Shown in pieces: positions 21,824 through 33,982 of a DNA stretch of 64,000 nucleotides. The DNA comes from an uncultured Candidatus Micrarchaeota archaeon (lineage in GTDB: Archaea; Micrarchaeota; Micrarchaeia; Burarchaeales; Fermentimicrarchaeaceae): NCBI GenBank assembly GCA_963760615.1, contig CAVXDX010000008.1:97459-161458 (forward strand), written 5' to 3'. The notes beneath the pieces were generated by a model. It was given only the letters and a program-made list of their open reading frames with translations. It searched no databases and was not told where the DNA came from. The stretch's first letter is position 1. Each line of letters starts with the position of its first letter. A program made the translations under genes and the position numbers.

Positions 21824-22489
21824 ATGAAAATTGAGGAGAAGTTTGAAGGAGTATTTGTCATAGAAGGAAGGCTTGCTACCAGGAACCTTGTAAAGGACTT
21901 CAAAGTGCACGGGGAGAGGCTCGTTTCGCTGGAGGGCGTGCAATACAGGTACTGGGATCCATACAGGAGCAAGCTTGCGGCCGCAGTAATCAAGGGGATG
22001 AAAAAAATGCCTGTGGAGAGTGGTTCGAAAGTGCTCTACCTTGGTGCTGCTGCTGGGGTGACTCCGAGTTTCATATCTGATATTGTGGGAGAAAAGGGAG
22101 TTGTTTACTGCGTGGAGTTCGCCCCGAGGAGCATGCGGGACCTTTTGTATGTGTGCGAGAAAAGGAGCAATATGCTGCCTTTGCTTGCCGATGCTAGAAA
22201 AACAGAAGAGTATGAGAAGGAGGTTGGCAAAGTTGATATTATATACGAGGATGTGGCGCAGCCTGACCAGGAGGATATAATGATCAGGAATGCCCAGAAG
22301 TTCTTGAGGAAAGGCGGCTATGCGATGCTCGCCATAAAATCGCAGAGCGTTGACGTGACTAAGCAGCCTAAGGAGGTTTATGAGAAGCTGCTGGGCAAGC
22401 TGGAGGAGCACTTTGAGATACTGGAGTGCTACGAGCTTTACCCTTTTGACAAGGATCATCTGTTTGTTTTGATGAGATATACCCAATGA
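21824..22489 (+). CDS. flpA: fibrillarin-like rRNA/tRNA 2'-O-methyltransferase
   Basis: 221 aa; VLYLGAAAGVTPSFISDIVG, VYCVEFAPR, LADAR motifs. Confidence 0.8.
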   Translation: MKIEEKFEGVFVIEGRLATRNLVKDFKVHGERLVSLEGVQYRYWDPYRSKLAAAVIKGMKKMPVESGSKVLYLGAAAGVTPSFISDIVGEKGVVYCVEFAPRSMRDLLYVCEKRSNMLPLLADARKTEEYEKEVGKVDIIYEDVAQPDQEDIMIRNAQKFLRKGGYAMLAIKSQSVDVTKQPKEVYEKLLGKLEEHFEILECYELYPFDKDHLFVLMRYTQ

Positions 22490-22502
22490 TACTGATAACA
22501 TT

Positions 22503-23836
22503 GTGACATGCTCCACCCCTAAAGGGTGTGGGCTTCCTGCTTCACAGACGTTGCTACTGCAACATCTCTCTCCTTTTGCAAGGAATTGCAGGCGTTACTT
22601 CCCCCTTGCCCAGGGGTAGCTCTCATGAGTATATTGCGTGCAGCATTCAAGTCTCTGTCTATTAACAAACCACAATTGGGGCAGGCATATATCCTGTCTC
22701 CGAGACTCAAGTCGTCCCTGATGTTTCCGCACCTGCTGCACATCTTTGAGGTATTTTCAGGGTCTACAAACACCACTCTGCATCCAGCTCCCTCCGCCTT
22801 GTATGCAAGCATGTTTGCAAACATACTCCATCCTGCATCATTGATGAACTTGCCGTAATGCTGCTCTGACATTTCTTTTGAGGCAAGTCTTTCTGATGCT
22901 ATGAAGGAATAATCATTCACCAAATCAGTTGTTGCCTTATGTAAGAAGTCTCTTCTTGTGTTGGCCACCTTCTCATGCAGTTTTGCTACTCTTACCTTTG
23001 CCTTCTTTCTGTTGCCGCTTCCTTTCTTTTTCTTCGAGAACTTTCTTTGTATGAAGGCAAGCCTATCCTCATGCTTCATGAGGTGTCTTGGGTTTTTTAT
23101 CATTTTGCCATTTGAGAGAGTTGCAAATGTCTTCAATCCCAGGTCTATACCTACTGCCTCTCCCCCGTTTTCTCGTGGAATCTTTCCAAGTGTCTCAACA
23201 GTGAAAATAGCAAACCATTTTCCTGAAGACTCTCTTTTCAGAGTCAGGGTTTTGATTCTGCCTTTTATCTCTCTGTGCTTATTTACTGCAATCTCACCAA
23301 AAGGAGTCACTGTGAGTTTCTTATCCAGAGAGAAGCCAGACCCATACTGCGGATAGTACAAGCTCTTCATCCTGTCAATTGATTTGAAGCGAGGGAAACC
23401 ACATTCCACTCCTTTTCTTCTCAGCTTGAAAACTCTCGTTACTGAATTATAAACTCTATGTGCAATCTCCTGCTGGGTTTGGGAATAGAGACCACACTCT
23501 TTTACCATCAGCTGTAGCGTATTCTTAGTTGGGAAGTAGCCAAAGTCTTTGTAGGTTTGTTTGCAGTGCTCCAGAAGCTCATTCCACATGTTCTTTGCTA
23601 TCCAAATATGCTGAAACATCTCCTTCTCCTGCTTCTTTGAGGGATATATCCTGAATTTGTAGGCTCTCATAGACGTTATTTATGTCTATTTTTCCCTTTA
23701 TAAACCTCTGGGAGGGGTAACTTTCCAGTGAAAGTTATATATACTGGAAGAGCTAAATTTTCCCTTATGGTTCGCTTTCATCCCACCCTTAAAAGGTGTG
23801 GGATTTCCCGCTCACGTTGTTAAATAATAGAATGTA
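22503..23836 (-). mobile_element. IS200/IS605-family TnpB-only insertion sequence (IS1341-like, non-autonomous)
   Basis: tnpB ORF flanked by two similar ~40-nt hairpin segments in the same orientation (22511-22553 and 23772-23815); TTAC on the tnpB strand next to the left end (~23833); no tnpA. Confidence 0.6.
22519..23670 (-). CDS. tnpB: TnpB (IS605 OrfB) RNA-guided endonuclease
   Basis: 383 aa; MRAYKFRIYP N-terminus, RuvC-like blocks, C-terminal CSRCG...CPNCG zinc finger. Confidence 0.85.
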   Translation of the reverse strand: MRAYKFRIYPSKKQEKEMFQHIWIAKNMWNELLEHCKQTYKDFGYFPTKNTLQLMVKECGLYSQTQQEIAHRVYNSVTRVFKLRRKGVECGFPRFKSIDRMKSLYYPQYGSGFSLDKKLTVTPFGEIAVNKHREIKGRIKTLTLKRESSGKWFAIFTVETLGKIPRENGGEAVGIDLGLKTFATLSNGKMIKNPRHLMKHEDRLAFIQRKFSKKKKGSGNRKKAKVRVAKLHEKVANTRRDFLHKATTDLVNDYSFIASERLASKEMSEQHYGKFINDAGWSMFANMLAYKAEGAGCRVVFVDPENTSKMCSRCGNIRDDLSLGDRIYACPNCGLLIDRDLNAARNILMRATPGQGGSNACNSLQKERDVAVATSVKQEAHTL

Positions 23837-23855: not shown

Positions 23856-24440
23856 ATGGCTGAGAAGGATACTCCTTTGAAAGAGGATGGAATAAAGCGC
23901 AAGATAAGGGATTTTGTGGCTAGAGTTACGATACTGGGGCTGCACACCTCGATAAGCGATATAGCAAACAGAATAGTTAAGAGCATCGGGGTTATGGATG
24001 AGAAATGGAGCAAGTACACCACAATCGAACTCCATAACGGTTTGAATAAGGACTTCTACAAAGCAGTTCCGAAGAAGGACAGAGTAGTATTCATACCGCA
24101 CTGCCTCAGGAACATAAAGGAGTGCAAGATGCCCATAGACGAGGATGGCTACCACTGCCTGAGATGCGGCAAGTGTGTGATAAATGACATTGTCAAGGAG
24201 TGCGATAAAAATAACATGAAGTATTTTATAGTCGGGGGAGGTTCCCAGGTCATCAACATAGTCAACAAGCACAAGCCAAAAGCATTTCTTGGCATAGCCT
24301 GCTTCAACGAGCTTCAGATGGCTGTGGAGAAGCTGGGGGGAGGCTCCAAATTCCCTGGGCAGGGTGTCATGCTGAAGAAGGACGGGTGCGTGAATACTGA
24401 AGTGGATATTACTGAAGTTAAAGAGAAAATAAACATGTAG
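23856..24440 (+). CDS. DUF116-family protein
   Basis: 194 aa; FIPHCLR...C...CLRCGKC Cys pattern typical of DUF116. Confidence 0.5.
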   Translation: MAEKDTPLKEDGIKRKIRDFVARVTILGLHTSISDIANRIVKSIGVMDEKWSKYTTIELHNGLNKDFYKAVPKKDRVVFIPHCLRNIKECKMPIDEDGYHCLRCGKCVINDIVKECDKNNMKYFIVGGGSQVINIVNKHKPKAFLGIACFNELQMAVEKLGGGSKFPGQGVMLKKDGCVNTEVDITEVKEKINM

Positions 24441-27329: not shown

Positions 27330-27345
27330 TGCAACCACGAAAGAG

Positions 27346-27435
27346 CGGGCCCGGCGGGATTTGAACCCGCGACTCCCTGGTTTCCTCATGCGAGTTTAAA
27401 AGCCAGGTACTCTGGCCAAGCTGAGTTACGGGCCC
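27346..27435 (-). tRNA. tRNA-Lys (anticodon TTT) with 15-nt canonical intron
   Basis: Acceptor GGGCCCG/CGGGCCC, anticodon stem CCTGG/CCAGG, loop CTTTTA|A interrupted after position 37 by AACTCGCATGAGGAA, T-arm GCGGG-TTCAAAT-CCCGC. Confidence 0.75.
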
Positions 27436-30206: not shown

Positions 30207-30379
30207 GTAATAATTATGGCATCTAAGATTAAAATAGGTTTACTTGCGCTAAGCTAGTATGTTTTTCGGAAAGTTACCCCTCCCTCAGGTATTTAAATAG
30301 GGTAAAGCAAGAAGTCAGCAAAAGATATTTATGCACTACTGTATAAAATAGCAATACTCTTTTTAAGAGGATGAGGTGA

Positions 30380-33300
30380 ATGGCCGAGGATATATCCCTC
30401 ATAGTTGACGACTTCGAGAAGTTCTTCGATACTTTCTGTAAGGAGGAGATTGAGACGCTCCTAGAGAGGTATCCCGAGAAGAGAAGCCTGGAAGTCAGCT
30501 ACGGGGAGCTGAGCAGGTACAGCAGCAAGACTGCGGACAACCTGCTGAACAAGCCCGATGCGTACATAAAGGCTGCGGAAAATGCATTGAAGGCGATGGC
30601 AATGCCTTCCCAGTACGAGGTGCCCTTCGAGCCCCACGTGCGCTTCTTTAACTTGCCTGAGCAGAGCAGGCCCCTGATTCAGGACATTGGCGCGGACCAT
30701 GTAGGCAAGCTCATCTGCATTGACGGTCTGATAACCAAAAGGACGGAGATAAGGCCGAAAGTTAAAGTTATGGAATTGAAGTGCCCGTACTGCGAGCATG
30801 TGGAGAAAATTCCTGTTGAGAGGAACACAGTCATACCGGAAACCTGCTCAAACTGCAAGAGAAAAGGCCTGCAGCACGATGAGGAGGAGTCACGATTCGT
30901 AAACTTGCAGAGGGCTGAGGCGCAGGAGCCTCTTGAGAGGACAAGGGGAGGCGCACAGGCCAGCCACATTGAGGTGTGGATGGAGGATGATTTGGTCAAC
31001 ACAATCAGCCCAGGGCAGAGGGTTGAGGTAACTGCTGTTCTGAGGATAAGACCGTTCAACGAGTCAAGGGGGCAGAGCTCAAGAACAGTCTATTCAAAAT
31101 ACCTTGATGCCGTGCACCTCAAGAGGGTTGAGAAGGAGTTTGAGGAGGTGGACATCAGCAAGGAGGATGAGAAAATTATACTTGAACTCTCAAAAGATGC
31201 CAATTTGTACAAGAAGATTGTGGGCTCAATTGCGCCTTCCATATACGGGCATGATGAGGTTAAGGAGGCGCTGGGCCTGCAGCTCTTCGGGGGAACTCCG
31301 AACAAAATGCTCTCTGATGGGGGGCATATAAGAAGCGATATACATGTGCTCCTCATAGGTGACCCGGGAGTGAGTAAAACCCGCTTGCTGCAGTACATAA
31401 CGAACCTTGCTCCCAAGAGTATATATGTGAGCGGTAAGGCAGTGACATCCGCCGGTTTGACTGCAACTGCCGAGAAGGATGAGCTTGGCGATGGCGGATG
31501 GACCCTGAAGGCAGGGGCGCTTGTCCTTGCATCCGGTGGTCTTGCAGGCATAGATGAGTTTGACAAGATTAAGGATGAAGAAGTAGCAGCAATGCACGAG
31601 GTAATGGAAAGCCAAAGTTACCACCCACAAACCAAGTTGATGTTCGCTGATGGCAGGGAGAGACAGATCGGAGAATTTGTTGAAGAGTTAATGCTTTCAG
31701 ATTCTAGGGATGTAATTAAGGGTAAGGACTGCATGATTCTTAGACCTAAATACGAGTATAGAGTGCTCACAACTGATTTTAGTAGAATTTATAGCACTGG
31801 GATAAGTCAAGTAAGCAAGCATAAGGCACCGGATTATTTCATCAGAGTGAAGCTCCAGAGCGGGAGGGAACTTTTGGTAACTCCCGAGCACCCATTCTGG
31901 GTTATTGAGGACTGCGATGTGAAGACTGTTGATGCTGAGAAGCTGAGAGGGGGAGAGTTTATTCCAATGCCTAAATATCTCCCAGTTGAGCATGAAGAGG
32001 ATGGGTACAGCAAGGAGTTTTACAGATTTCTGGGTTATCATATAACCGAAGGAAGCTATGAGCTTAACAGAGGAGTGAAGAATGGGATAAACTTCACGAA
32101 CAAAAACCAAGAGCTTGTGGACGATTATGTTGATTTAACTAGTGGAATATTCGGCTCCAAATGTTACATCCAAGAGGATAAGAGGAGTGGCGTAACAAAT
32201 GCAAGAATAATATCTATGCCAGTTGTAAGGTATCTTTCTTCAATCGATTCAAATTTGCTTAGCAAGGGGGTTTCCAAGAACCTGCCAGACCGGTTCCTTG
32301 GCGCTAGTGATGAGAAAATAAGAGAGTTTCTGAAGGCAACATACGAGGGTGATGGATCATTTAGCAAGAATACGGTAAGCCTGGTTTGTGAGAACCATAA
32401 GTTTGTTGAACAGATTCAGACACTACTGCTTAGGTTTGGCATCAGGTCGCATACGTTCAAGGATGGAATTGTCTATAGGATAACAATCAATGGGGAGGAA
32501 AATCTCAGAACCTTCTATGAGAAAGTGGGCTTCATTTCTAATGAGAAAAATTCTAAGCTCTTGGGGTATTTGAGAAAGGAAAAATCGTATAGAACAGTCA
32601 CGGATGTTATACCGAATTCCGGGAAGAAGGTATACAAGTTGCTCAGGGAACTCAAAATACACAGCAGTTATATACTCTCTTCATCGTTGACGACTAATTT
32701 CTCGAATAAACACAATTTCACCAGAAGAAGTTTTGAGAAGATTGTTTGCAGGATGAACGAGAAAATTGCTGCCATAAGAGAGGCTATTCCAAGCGTGGAA
32801 AGGGCAACATCAATTAATGAGCTGGTAAGGATTAGAAAATCCCTTAACTTATCCCAAAGTGACATTTCTGGAAGGGATGAGAGATTACGGCATCTCGTCT
32901 CCTACTACGAAATCAAAAATACGCAAATTGAGAGGTGCAGGAAGCTTCTGATGGAATGCTGCATGAAGAAACTGGAGGCTGAAAGAGAAGTCGATAGGCT
33001 GGGAAGGCTTGCGCAAAGCGATATCAGATGGTGCAAGGTTGTCTCTGTTGATAAAGTTGAGAATGAGAATATTGAATGGGTTTACGATGTTGCAGTTGAG
33101 CCAACTAAAGCATTCGTATCAGAGTGCGCCGTGCTGCACAACAGCGTCTCAGTTGCGAAGGCGGGTATAGTCGCAAAGTTTAAGGCCAAGACATCCATAC
33201 TCGCAGCAGCAAACCCCAAGTTCGGAAGGTTCGACCCAATGGGGTATCCTGCGGACCAGTTTGATATTCCTCCTACAATACTCTCAAGGTTTGACTTGAT

Positions 33301-33982
33301 TTTCCCAATAAAGGATATTCTTGATGAGGAGAAGGACAGGAAACTTGCGAGCTTCATACTTGACCAGCACACAGCTGCGGGAAAGAGGGTTGAGAAGACC
33401 ATAACCGAGGAGGAGGAGATAAGGCCGCCCATAGAGGCGGATATGCTCAGAAAGTACATTGCCTACGCGAGGAGGAGAATTTCGCCTGTTCTGACTCCGG
33501 AAGCCAGCGACAAGATAAGGGAGTATTACGTTGAGCTGAGGAGGATTGGCGCTACGCAGGGCGCAGTCCCCATAACCCCGAGGTATATTGAAGGAATGGT
33601 GAGGCTTGCAGAGGCAAGTGCTAAGGTAAGGCTAAGCAAGAGGGTGGAGCTGGCAGATGCTGAGAGGGCGATAAAGCTCATGGACTTCATGCTCAAATCA
33701 ATAACAATGGACAAGGGGCTGGGCAGAATAGACATAGATATAATAACGACAGGCCAGCCAAAGTCAAAAGCAGACAGAATAAGGAATATAATTGACATAG
33801 TGAAGGAGCTTGAGAAAGAATATGACTTGGTTGAGATTGAGAAGGTAGTTGAGGAGGCAAAGAAGTACGGGCTCGATGAGACAACAACAAGAAGGATGAT
33901 TGACGAGATGCTTAGGAAAACAGGGGAGCTGTACGAGCCAAAGCACGGGCATGTGAAGGTTGTTAGGCCGAAGGTGGAGTGA
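30380..33982 (+). CDS. mcm: MCM replicative helicase containing a LAGLIDADG intein
   Basis: 1200 aa; N-terminal Zn finger CPYCEH...CSNCK, Walker A LLIGDPGVSKT, Walker B IDEFDKI, arginine finger SRFDL; ~509-aa insertion with intein blocks. Confidence 0.9.
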   Translation: MAEDISLIVDDFEKFFDTFCKEEIETLLERYPEKRSLEVSYGELSRYSSKTADNLLNKPDAYIKAAENALKAMAMPSQYEVPFEPHVRFFNLPEQSRPLIQDIGADHVGKLICIDGLITKRTEIRPKVKVMELKCPYCEHVEKIPVERNTVIPETCSNCKRKGLQHDEEESRFVNLQRAEAQEPLERTRGGAQASHIEVWMEDDLVNTISPGQRVEVTAVLRIRPFNESRGQSSRTVYSKYLDAVHLKRVEKEFEEVDISKEDEKIILELSKDANLYKKIVGSIAPSIYGHDEVKEALGLQLFGGTPNKMLSDGGHIRSDIHVLLIGDPGVSKTRLLQYITNLAPKSIYVSGKAVTSAGLTATAEKDELGDGGWTLKAGALVLASGGLAGIDEFDKIKDEEVAAMHEVMESQSYHPQTKLMFADGRERQIGEFVEELMLSDSRDVIKGKDCMILRPKYEYRVLTTDFSRIYSTGISQVSKHKAPDYFIRVKLQSGRELLVTPEHPFWVIEDCDVKTVDAEKLRGGEFIPMPKYLPVEHEEDGYSKEFYRFLGYHITEGSYELNRGVKNGINFTNKNQELVDDYVDLTSGIFGSKCYIQEDKRSGVTNARIISMPVVRYLSSIDSNLLSKGVSKNLPDRFLGASDEKIREFLKATYEGDGSFSKNTVSLVCENHKFVEQIQTLLLRFGIRSHTFKDGIVYRITINGEENLRTFYEKVGFISNEKNSKLLGYLRKEKSYRTVTDVIPNSGKKVYKLLRELKIHSSYILSSSLTTNFSNKHNFTRRSFEKIVCRMNEKIAAIREAIPSVERATSINELVRIRKSLNLSQSDISGRDERLRHLVSYYEIKNTQIERCRKLLMECCMKKLEAEREVDRLGRLAQSDIRWCKVVSVDKVENENIEWVYDVAVEPTKAFVSECAVLHNSVSVAKAGIVAKFKAKTSILAAANPKFGRFDPMGYPADQFDIPPTILSRFDLIFPIKDILDEEKDRKLASFILDQHTAAGKRVEKTITEEEEIRPPIEADMLRKYIAYARRRISPVLTPEASDKIREYYVELRRIGATQGAVPITPRYIEGMVRLAEASAKVRLSKRVELADAERAIKLMDFMLKSITMDKGLGRIDIDIITTGQPKSKADRIRNIIDIVKELEKEYDLVEIEKVVEEAKKYGLDETTTRRMIDEMLRKTGELYEPKHGHVKVVRPKVE
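31616..33142 (+). other. intein (509 aa) with LAGLIDADG homing-endonuclease domain, within MCM
   Basis: Block A SYHPQTKLMFADG...IGEFV; block B LVTPEHPFWV; LAGLIDADG-like FLGYHITEGS and FLKATYEGDGSF; C-terminal HN followed by Ser; exteins rejoin as HEVMESQ|SVSVAKAGI. Confidence 0.75.

What the first reader, a model, noticed from the sequence alone, without database searches (positions are those of the whole stretch)
22503..23836. TnpB-only IS200/IS605 element inserted between fibrillarin and a DUF116 gene
An intact 383-aa TnpB (RuvC-like plus Zn finger) is flanked by two ~40-nt similar segments with hairpin potential in the same orientation, at 22511-22553 and 23772-23815. The right end overlaps the tnpB stop codon, so the omega-RNA scaffold would lie in the tnpB 3' region, and its guide would read into the fibrillarin 3' end. 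The left end lies 20 nt from the DUF116 start, and a TATA-like TTAAATAA inside the element end may now drive that gene. There is no tnpA, so the element is non-autonomous.
Basis: partly seen in the sequence, partly recalled or inferred. Interest (0 to 1): 0.5.

Follow-up and report, generated by a model that had tools for sequence, protein, structure and literature searches.

The report
TnpB-only insertion sequence in a Micrarchaeota genome
This is an ordinary but intact TnpB-only IS200/IS605 mobile element (RNA-guided nuclease plus its guide RNA), 1317 bp long, that landed between the fibrillarin and DUF116 genes of a tiny DPANN archaeon; related genomes still show the empty site.

Summary
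Window 22503-23819 (minus strand, 1317 bp) is an IS200/IS605-family element of the TnpB-only (IS1341-like) type in a Micrarchaeota (DPANN archaeon) genome.

- **Protein:** it encodes an intact 383-aa TnpB. The RuvC residues D176/E260/D340 and the CxxC...CxxC zinc finger are all present and invariant in 22 relatives.
- **Ends:** both ends carry imperfect hairpins, supported by compensatory changes across relatives.
- **Guide RNA:** the last ~118 nt (22620-22503) form an omega-RNA scaffold. 13 of 30 base pairs show compensatory changes; 97% of cells are paired against 54% or less in slid controls.
- **Empty sites:** five related metagenome contigs have fibrillarin directly followed by DUF116. 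One of them (L051) carries a 73%-identical TnpB element at a different site that is empty in this window.
- **Boundaries:** this reciprocal comparison fixes the right end at ...GCATGTCAC| (22503), the left end just after a 5'-TTTAA motif (TAM), and shows no target duplication.
- **Guide:** it is the 16-20 nt from 22502 downward and covers the fibrillarin stop codon.

Corrections: the element ends at 23819, not 23836. The TTAAATAA box lies outside the element and is DUF116's own TATA-like box. No tnpA was found in 415 kb of related DNA. This is a new member of a known kind, of low to moderate interest.

The parts
22503..23819 (-). Whole IS200/IS605-type TnpB-only element, 1317 bp, no target-site duplication
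   Evidence: The right boundary comes from the sharp end of conservation in 14 relatives. Both boundaries come from reciprocal filled/empty sites with L051. Accuracy of the left boundary is about +/-1 nt.
23820..23824 (-). Transposon-adjacent motif (TAM) 5'-TTTAA, flank DNA immediately 5' of the left end
   Evidence: The same position in 13 relatives plus L051 reads TTTAA x5, CTTAA, ATTAA x2, GTAAA, TTTAG, CTTAG, TTTAC, TATAC, AGCAA. TTTAA is the experimentally shown TAM of archaeal SisTnpB1 (PMC10640517).
23770..23819 (-). Left end (LE) with imperfect hairpin CCCAC(A)CCT-TTTA-AGGGTGGG at 23802..23782
   Evidence: nhmmer with a left-end profile gives E=7e-16. The hairpin is 94% paired in 13 relatives against 50.5% or less in slid controls, with 7 compensated cells. 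DNA fold is -8.6 kcal/mol, z=-3.3.
23697..23726 (-). tnpB promoter region: conserved motif GGAAAGTTACCCCTCC (23726..23711) and TATA box TTTATAAA (23704..23697). The TATA box ends 26 nt before the ATG, so the mRNA probably has little or no leader
   Evidence: Nearly invariant in 14 aligned relatives, including those that have lost the left-end hairpin. The motif sits at -56 of tnpB in 17 loci. Promoter function is inferred from archaeal TATA spacing and was not tested.
22519..23670 (-). tnpB, 383 aa, RNA-guided RuvC nuclease with zinc ribbon
   Evidence: It aligns over residues 2-363 to ISDra2 TnpB (PDB 8bf8/8exa/8h1j, E=2e-43), matching D176/E260/D340 to D191/E278/D361 and C311/C314/C330/C333 to the zinc finger. 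All seven residues are invariant in 22 relatives.
22503..22620 (-). Omega-RNA scaffold (~118 nt), overlapping the last 34 tnpB codons and the right end. It has six helices in the consensus structure, among them a terminal stem-loop, a long-range stem CCUGC/GCAGG that encloses two hairpins, and the right-end hairpin
   Evidence: RNAalifold on 16 sequences predicts 30 pairs, 13 with changes on both sides. 97.4% of cells are paired against 37-54% when partners are slid, and 0/500 shuffles reach the observed values on all five measures. The window's own MFE fold has the same stems. There is a weak full-length match to Rfam HgcC.
22503..22532 (-). Right end (RE): hairpin CCCACACCC-TTTA-GGGGTGG (22532..22513) plus a 10-nt tail AGCATGTCAC that ends the element. 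The tnpB stop TAG is in the hairpin loop
   Evidence: Relatives show compensatory changes in this hairpin, for example CCCACGCCTATTCATAGGCGG (helices 5-6).
22483..22502 (-). Predicted guide of the omega-RNA (AAUGUUAUCAGUAUCAUUGG), which is flank DNA. It covers the fibrillarin stop codon (22487-22489) and last codon
   Evidence: Sequence conservation among relatives stops exactly at 22503, so what follows is locus-specific. The only perfect match of the first 16 nt in the window is this site. Guide length is inferred from ISDra2 and SisTnpB1.
23820..23827 (+). TTAAATAA, the native TATA-like box of DUF116 (ATG at 23856). It lies outside the element and overlaps the TAM
   Evidence: The equivalent position in uninterrupted relatives reads TTTTAAAC (L051) or TTTTAAGC (L052-L055), about 35 nt before the DUF116 ATG.

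Best explanation
A non-autonomous IS200/IS605-family insertion sequence of the TnpB-only (IS1341-like) type, in a Micrarchaeota genome.

**How it arrived (boundaries shown; mechanism inferred from IS608/ISDra2)**
- It inserted as single-stranded DNA, without target duplication, immediately 3' of a TTTAA motif. That motif happens to be part of the DUF116 TATA box.
- Insertion would have needed a Y1 TnpA supplied in trans, which recognises the imperfect hairpins near both ends.

**What it does now**
- tnpB is transcribed from its own conserved TATA promoter.
- The 3' part of that transcript (22620-22503) folds into the omega-RNA scaffold. The next 16-20 nt of flank (22502 downward) serve as the guide.
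- TnpB plus omega-RNA would then cut any copy of the chromosome that has lost the element. Such a copy has TTTAA directly followed by AATGTTATCAGTATCA....
- Repair from an element-bearing copy would put the element back (the homing/retention model described for ISDra2-type elements).
- The occupied locus is not cut, because the guide-matching DNA there is preceded by the right end (...GTCAC) and not by TTTAA.

**Status of each step**
- Shown: anatomy, boundaries, insertion, intact catalytic residues, conserved RNA structure.
- Inferred: expression, nuclease activity, TAM use, present-day mobility.
For: - **Domains and catalytic residues:**
- **Family:** more than 6,500 homologues; the closest (65-81% identity) come from Micrarchaeota MAGs where a source gives a name. 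47 loci were fetched.
- **Right boundary:** sharp at GCATGTCAC| in 14 relatives.
- **Left end:** hairpin plus NTTAA motif in 13 relatives.
- **Omega-RNA covariation:**
- **Empty sites:** found in L051-L055. L051 carries a related element at another site, which is empty in the window. The reconstructed empty site aligns without a gap at the junction when 22503-23819 is removed.
- **Spacing:** the right-end tail is 10 nt beyond the hairpin and the left-end start is 16 nt before it. By my recollection IS608 has 10 and 19 nt.
- **Published parallels:** TTTAA is the proven TAM of the archaeal SisTnpB1 (PMC10640517). The Rfam HgcC family, which shares a structural motif with the RNAs made from the 3' ends of IS1341-type tnpB genes (PMC4615843), gives a full-length but sub-threshold match on exactly this segment.
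- **Signs of other copies:** Logan contigs from run ERR10755944 carry the same insertion. They break inside the right-end hairpin and inside the tnpB promoter, as expected if these segments are repeated in that genome.
Against: - No tnpA was found in the window, in the +/-3 kb around 47 relatives, or in 415 kb in total. The enzyme that moved the element is therefore unidentified, and current mobility is unproven.
- The right-end hairpin on its own is not unusually stable as DNA (z=-1.0).
- There are no expression data.
- No Rfam family reaches threshold.
- A pseudoknot like that of the ISDra2 omega-RNA could not be resolved.
- The left boundary rests on comparison with a relative whose spacer is only about 80% identical, so it could be off by 1 nt.
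Confidence: 0.85

Rival explanations
1. An immobilised, retained TnpB/omega-RNA module. The genome, and perhaps the whole lineage, has no TnpA. The ends would then be relics, and the nuclease persists either as a selfish addiction-type module or because the host uses it.
For: - No tnpA in 415 kb of related DNA.
- Several relatives (L002, L004, L015, L045, L008, L051) have lost or degraded the left-end hairpin yet keep the promoter, an intact ORF and the right end with its omega-RNA region.
Against: - The window copy has both hairpins intact, and left-end hairpins in relatives are kept by compensatory changes.
- The window and L051 differ by reciprocal presence and absence, although their flanking genes are 79-86% identical in DNA. 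Elements of this family have therefore moved since these genomes diverged.
Confidence: 0.12
2. A nuclease-dead, TldR-like RNA-guided transcription regulator derived from TnpB, using the flank as a guide to regulate fibrillarin or DUF116.
For: The guide overlaps a gene end, and the element abuts a promoter.
Against: - D176, E260 and D340 and the zinc finger are intact and invariant.
- The protein is full length and aligns to ISDra2 TnpB over residues 2-363.
- Transposon ends are present.
- The guide-matching DNA is simply the insertion flank, as in any IS605 element.
Confidence: 0.02
3. A miniature type V CRISPR effector (Cas12f-like), or an IS607-type TnpB.
For: Weak sequence similarity to Cas12f/C2c8 and to IS607 TnpB models.
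Against: - No CRISPR repeat family in the window at Rfam thresholds, and no repeat array next to the gene.
- The best NCBIfam models are guided_TnpB and IS200_TnpB.
- No recurring neighbour gene of any kind, so no shared serine-recombinase gene, in 47 relatives.
- The hairpin ends and a TAM-adjacent insertion without duplication are IS200/IS605 traits.
Confidence: 0.01

Closest known systems
ISDra2 TnpB/omega-RNA (Deinococcus radiodurans; PDB 8bf8, 8exa, 8h1j)
   Same: - Same domain order, and alignable over residues 2-363 (E=2e-43).
- Same RuvC D-E-D triad and zinc finger.
- Guide RNA encoded in the tnpB 3' end plus the right end, with the guide taken from the flank.
- A 5-nt T-rich TAM 5' of the left end.
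   Different: - ISDra2 carries its own tnpA; this element does not.
- TAM is TTGAT (from my own knowledge) against TTTAA here.
- The host is a bacterium.
- The omega-RNA sequence is unrelated, and the ISDra2-type pseudoknot was not found here.
Sulfolobus islandicus SisTnpB1 and solo-tnpB IS200/IS605 elements (PMC10640517)
   Same: - Archaeal elements, some of which carry tnpB alone.
- An AT-rich TAM defined from the 5' edge of the left end (TTTAA).
- Conserved right end, with a variable 3' guide.
   Different: - In that paper TTTAA belongs to the tnpA+tnpB elements, and the solo-tnpB elements have TTTAT.
- The host there is a thermophilic crenarchaeon, here a presumably mesophilic DPANN archaeon.
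- Direct sequence similarity to SisTnpB1 was not measured here.
IS1341-type tnpB genes with 3' sense-overlapping RNAs (sotRNAs), and the Rfam HgcC family RF00062 (PMC4615843)
   Same: - Archaeal tnpB-only elements whose 3' end gives a structured RNA that includes the right-end tetraloop hairpin.
- The HgcC model aligns end to end (positions 1-130) with window 22618-22490, with the same order of stems and a ...GAG.A.GUCA tail.
   Different: The score is 15.7 bits against a gathering score of 50, so the RNA is not a member by Rfam's criterion. The loop here is UUUA rather than the UUCA emphasised in that paper.
IS608 (Helicobacter pylori), the mechanistic model for IS200/IS605 ends
   Same: - Subterminal imperfect hairpins on one strand.
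- Cleavage a fixed distance outside each hairpin.
- Insertion 3' of a short specific sequence without duplication.
   Different: IS608 encodes TnpA and targets TTAC (from my own knowledge). TnpA-DNA contacts cannot be tested here.

Membership tests
IS200/IS605 family, TnpB-only (IS1341-like) group | Encodes TnpB/OrfB with an N-terminal HTH, a RuvC-like OrfB_IS605 domain and a C-terminal zinc ribbon | tested here: met
   Pfam hits for all three domains pass their cutoffs. NCBIfam guided_TnpB scores 299 bits against 100.
IS200/IS605 family, TnpB-only (IS1341-like) group | Subterminal imperfect palindromes at both ends in the same orientation, with no terminal inverted repeats | tested here: met
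   Hairpins at 23802..23782 and 22532..22513 lie on the same strand. They are supported by covariation.
IS200/IS605 family, TnpB-only (IS1341-like) group | Insertion 3' of a short specific motif, without target-site duplication | tested here: met
   Empty sites in L051-L055 and the reciprocal empty site in the window. An NTTAA motif is present in 13 relatives.
IS200/IS605 family (autonomous members) | Y1 HUH transposase TnpA (Pfam PF01797) encoded in the element | tested here: not met
   - No hit with IS608 and IS200 TnpA probes in the six-frame ORFs of the window and 63 loci. The probes were validated at 145 and 131 bits on PF01797.
- No recurrent neighbouring gene.
- The element therefore belongs with the non-autonomous TnpB-only group.
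OMEGA (TnpB/omega-RNA) RNA-guided nucleases | Intact RuvC catalytic triad and zinc finger | tested here: met
   D176/E260/D340 align to ISDra2 D191/E278/D361, and four Cys are present. All are invariant in 22 relatives.
OMEGA (TnpB/omega-RNA) RNA-guided nucleases | Structured RNA encoded across the tnpB 3' end and the right end, followed by a locus-specific guide | tested here: met
   13 of 30 pairs are compensated and 97.4% of cells are paired. Conservation stops at 22503. The RNA itself has not been observed.
OMEGA (TnpB/omega-RNA) RNA-guided nucleases | TAM-dependent, guide-dependent cleavage of double-stranded DNA | not testable with these tools
   Needs biochemistry or an interference assay.
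Rfam HgcC (RF00062) | Score at or above the family's gathering score (50 bits) | tested here: not met
   15.7 bits, E=0.15 on 261 nt, although the match is full length.
TldR-type nuclease-dead TnpB regulators | Loss of RuvC catalytic residues or C-terminal truncation | tested here: not met
   The triad is intact and the protein is full length.

The most novel reading that the evidence does not exclude
This TnpB family may spread in Micrarchaeota (DPANN archaea with genomes of about 1 Mb) without any tnpA in those genomes.

- Left- and right-end hairpins are kept by compensatory changes.
- Close relatives differ by reciprocal presence and absence of elements.
- Yet none of 48 family loci, and nothing in 415 kb of DNA from these and related contigs, encodes a Y1 transposase.

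If complete genomes confirm the absence, the transposase would have to come from outside, for example from the host archaeon to which these episymbionts attach, or the element would move by a TnpA-independent route.
Probability: 0.08. Interest if true: 0.6.

Novelty: new member of a known kind. Interest (0 to 1): 0.25.

Why it matters
Mostly this is a clean, fully delimited example, not a surprise.
- It gives a compact (383 aa) archaeal TnpB, probably from a mesophile, together with a defined ~118-nt omega-RNA scaffold backed by covariation, a TTTAA-type TAM and exact element ends. That is what is needed to test a new miniature RNA-guided nuclease.
- It shows that small DPANN genomes carry several diverged copies of such elements that have moved recently, with no transposase gene seen near any of 48 family loci.
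- It shows an insertion exactly at the upstream edge of a gene's TATA box, because the AT-rich TAM is part of that box.

Tried and rejected
- **Exact-protein look-ups.** Look-ups of the TnpB (window ORF, P0001, P0077) found no contig, so the second copy on the same contig could not be read.
- **Phage collection.** A blastn search found nothing.
- **Rfam.** At gathering thresholds it found only tRNAs. At relaxed thresholds it gave only a sub-threshold HgcC match.
- **Omega-RNA pseudoknot.** An all-against-all scan for covarying column pairs was too noisy with 16 sequences, so no extra helix was accepted.
- **Insertion at TATA boxes as a general habit.** Rejected. Only the window, L006 and L051 fit, and most relatives have no divergent gene start within about 40 nt.
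- **Palindrome at the tnpB start codon and a second hairpin between the left end and the promoter.** By eye, relatives accumulate mismatches, so neither was pursued.
- **Left boundary.** A first estimate of 23818 (TAM TTAAC) was replaced by 23819 (TAM TTTAA) after the reciprocal empty-site comparison.
- **Literature.** Searches for TnpB in Micrarchaeota or Fermentimicrarchaeum gave nothing specific.
- **Cluster look-up.** It gave no accession or organism name for the source genome.

Full report
**1. What is in the sequence**

The ORF at 22519..23670 (minus strand) encodes 383 aa. It carries the three Pfam domains typical of TnpB: HTH_OrfB_IS605, OrfB_IS605 and the Cas12f1-like zinc ribbon. It also passes NCBIfam's "RNA-guided endonuclease TnpB family" model at 299 bits against a cutoff of 100.

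The neighbours are fibrillarin (21824..22489, +, Pfam 8e-87) and a DUF116 protein (23856..24440, +, 1e-38).

Two same-strand copies of a 20-nt hairpin-forming motif flank the gene, at 23802..23783 and 22532..22513 on the minus strand. The motif occurs nowhere else in the 64 kb, with none expected by chance. The tnpB stop codon lies in the loop of the second copy.

**2. Host and family**

More than 6,500 homologues were found. The closest (65-81% identity), where a source gives a name, are from Candidatus Micrarchaeota MAGs, including the complete genome of Ca. Fermentimicrarchaeum limneticum. A scan of one genome per species returned 47 loci, almost all Micrarchaeota, often with several per contig. 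The element therefore belongs to a diverged multi-copy family in DPANN archaea.

A second intact paralogue (P0077, 69% identity, same C-terminal tail) is on record for a contig of the same length (212,721 bp) as the one that carries this TnpB. I could not fetch that contig.

**3. Catalytic competence**

The protein aligns over residues 2-363 with ISDra2 TnpB, whose structures are solved (8bf8, 8exa, 8h1j; E=2e-43).
- D176, E260 and D340 fall on D191, E278 and D361.
- C311, C314, C330 and C333 fall on the zinc finger.
- All seven positions are invariant in 22 relatives.

**4. Ends of the element**

At the right end, alignment of the 3' regions of 14 relatives shows strong nucleotide conservation that stops abruptly after ...GGAGCATGTCAC.

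At the left end, 13 relatives share a conserved segment, (C)AAsGTGAGCGGGAAAT-hairpin-ATGARAGCGA, preceded by an NTTAA-like pentamer. The left-end hairpin is 94% paired across relatives, against 40-50.5% when partners are slid. Its two upper pairs change on both sides in 7 cells.

**5. Proof of insertion and exact boundaries**

A metagenome scan with the fibrillarin protein gave five close relatives (83-89% identity, L051-L055). In all of them fibrillarin is followed directly by DUF116, with a 36-51 nt spacer and no tnpB.

L051 also carries a 73%-identical TnpB (the element is 79% identical in DNA), in the same orientation but at a different place. It sits between the B-box protein gene and tRNA-Arg, where the window has no element (window 21677/21678). 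Each genome is thus the empty site for the other's element.
- In L051 the element is flanked by ...CTTAT|GTGACATGCC... and ...GTCACATTA|TTAAATTT, and the window reads CTTAT|TTAAATTT. The right end is therefore ...GCATGTCAC| and the left end starts directly after 5'-TTTAA on the element strand.
- Applying the same rule to the window, removal of 22503-23819 gives GATAACATT|TTAAATAATAG. This aligns with L051's GATAATGTT|TTAAACACTG without a gap at the junction and without duplicated bases (and reading of the sequences).

The element is therefore 1317 bp, has no target duplication, and has the TAM TTTAA at 23824..23820.

The same comparison shows that TTAAATAA (23820-23827, + strand) is flank DNA. 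A TTTTAAA or TTTTAAG box sits at the same distance before the DUF116 ATG in the uninterrupted relatives. It is the gene's own TATA-like box, and the element replaced only what lay upstream of it. The true distance is 36 nt.

**6. The guide RNA**

From about 22620 to 22503 the DNA is more conserved than the protein needs. RNAalifold on 16 family members predicts six helices, among them a terminal stem-loop, a long-range stem (CCUGC/GCAGG) that encloses two hairpins, and the right-end hairpin.
- 13 of the 30 pairs keep pairing through changes on both sides.
- On the same structure, 97.4% of cells are standard pairs, against 37-54% for slid partners.
- None of 500 column shuffles reaches the observed values on any of five measures.
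- The window's own minimum-energy fold contains the same stems.

Rfam has no family above threshold. The archaeal HgcC model (RF00062) aligns end to end with window 22618-22490 at 15.7 bits (gathering score 50), with matching stem order and a matching 3' tail. Gomes-Filho et al. 2015 (PMC4615843) described sense-overlapping RNAs at the 3' end of IS1341-type tnpB genes and noted the same right-end tetraloop motif in HgcC. The weak match is therefore a distant-relative signal rather than membership.

Because conservation stops at 22503, the next 16-20 nt (AAUGUUAUCAGUAUCAUUGG, 22502..22483) are the guide. They cover the fibrillarin stop codon at 22487-22489. The first 16 nt have no other perfect match in the window. 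A pseudoknot could not be resolved with 16 sequences.

**7. Promoter**

A block 26-56 nt upstream of the tnpB ATG is almost invariant in relatives, including those that have lost the left-end hairpin. It reads TTCACTGGAAAGTTACCCCTCCCAGAGGTTTATAAAGGG. The TTTATAAA box ends 26 nt before the ATG, which by normal archaeal spacing implies an mRNA with little or no leader. This is inference.

No convincing internal TATA box precedes the scaffold. I therefore infer that the omega-RNA is cut out of the tnpB transcript, as reported for ISDra2 (from my own knowledge; not tested).

**8. No transposase**

I wrote IS608 and IS200 TnpA sequences from memory. They score 145 and 131 bits on Pfam Y1_Tnp, so they are valid probes. 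They find nothing (best E=0.7) in the six-frame ORFs of the window plus 63 fetched loci, 415 kb in all. All-against-all clustering of ORFs within +/-3 kb of 47 relatives finds no recurrent neighbour other than tnpB itself.

The element is non-autonomous, and the whole family looks TnpB-only. The reciprocal presence and absence between the window and L051 still shows that family members have moved since these genomes diverged. A TnpA must therefore exist, or have existed, somewhere I could not search.

**9. Mechanism proposed**

See the best explanation. The anatomy, boundaries, insertion event, intact active site and conserved RNA structure are shown here. TnpA-mediated single-strand "peel and paste" insertion next to TTTAA is inferred from IS608, ISDra2 and SisTnpB1. 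So is TnpB/omega-RNA cleavage of element-free TTTAA+AATGTTATC... copies, followed by recombinational restoration. SisTnpB1 provides experimental support for a TTTAA TAM in an archaeal TnpB (PMC10640517).

One further inference: a cut at the empty site would fall within a few bases of the end of fibrillarin, which may raise the cost of losing the element.

**10. Comparison and verdict**

This is a new member of a very well known kind. Every defining feature of a TnpB-only IS200/IS605 element that can be tested in silico is met. The missing tnpA is what defines the subgroup.

Interest is low to moderate. The value lies in a fully delimited compact archaeal TnpB/omega-RNA/TAM set from a DPANN genome, and in the open question of what mobilises a family with no transposase in sight.

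Noticed in passing
window 30268-30300 (+), about 95 nt upstream of the MCM gene (30380..33982): An exact 17-nt copy of the conserved tnpB promoter motif GGAAAGTTACCCCTCCC, followed by a similar TATA-like box (TCAGGTATTTAAATAGGGTAAAG against AGAGGTTTATAAAGGGAAAAA). In 17 related loci the motif occurs only at -56 of tnpB. It is either a shared regulatory site, which would tie tnpB expression to a replication gene, or the stump of a dead element's promoter.
   Followed up: partly
window 22612-22622 (-) and 23713-23723 (-): The first stem of the omega-RNA scaffold begins GAGCTACCCCT, close to the promoter motif AAGTTACCCCT (AAGCTACCCCT in several relatives). The short pattern alone is not above chance: 30 of 100 shuffles give as many matches.
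   Followed up: partly
window 30380-33982 (+): A 1200-aa MCM helicase interrupted in its P-loop domain by an intein with a LAGLIDADG homing-endonuclease domain. This is a second selfish element in the window.
   Followed up: no
L051 about 936-2228 (metagenome contig Ga0315281_10029121): A related TnpB element is inserted between the B-box protein gene and its TTAAATTT box. The element separates that gene from its likely TATA box, and the gene could now only be read through from tnpB. The left-end hairpin of this copy is degenerate.
   Followed up: partly
L051 2325-2492: About 168 nt lie between tRNA-Arg and fibrillarin that are absent from the window, where the tRNA ends 9 nt before the fibrillarin ATG. 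They contain a short ORF rich in Cys.
   Followed up: no
L002, L004, L008, L015, L045 (upstream of tnpB): These relatives lack a recognisable left-end hairpin but keep the promoter, an intact tnpB and the right end with its omega-RNA region. TnpB and its RNA evidently outlive the loss of mobility.
   Followed up: partly
L003 6637-6675 (+) and L011 2197-2164 (-): Extra left-end-like copies (nhmmer E=5e-10 and 2.5e-8) lie away from the tnpB that brought the locus in. They may be solo ends, PATE-like derivatives, or the start of a neighbouring element.
   Followed up: no
L048 3750-3791 and L049 1-30 (Logan assembly of ERR10755944): Contigs of the same strain carry the same insertion. They stop inside the right-end hairpin and inside the conserved tnpB promoter, which suggests these segments are repeated in that genome.
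   Followed up: partly
window 27345-27435 (-): A tRNA is found by Rfam (56.9 bits), but ARAGORN could not assign an anticodon (91 nt). It is probably an intron-containing archaeal tRNA.
   Followed up: no
window 22627-22636 and 22484-22493 (-): The MFE fold pairs the guide (AGUAUCAUUG) with the conserved coding segment CAAUAUACU upstream of the scaffold: 9 bp with one bulge. The flank is host sequence also present at the empty site in L051, so this is most likely coincidence.
   Followed up: no
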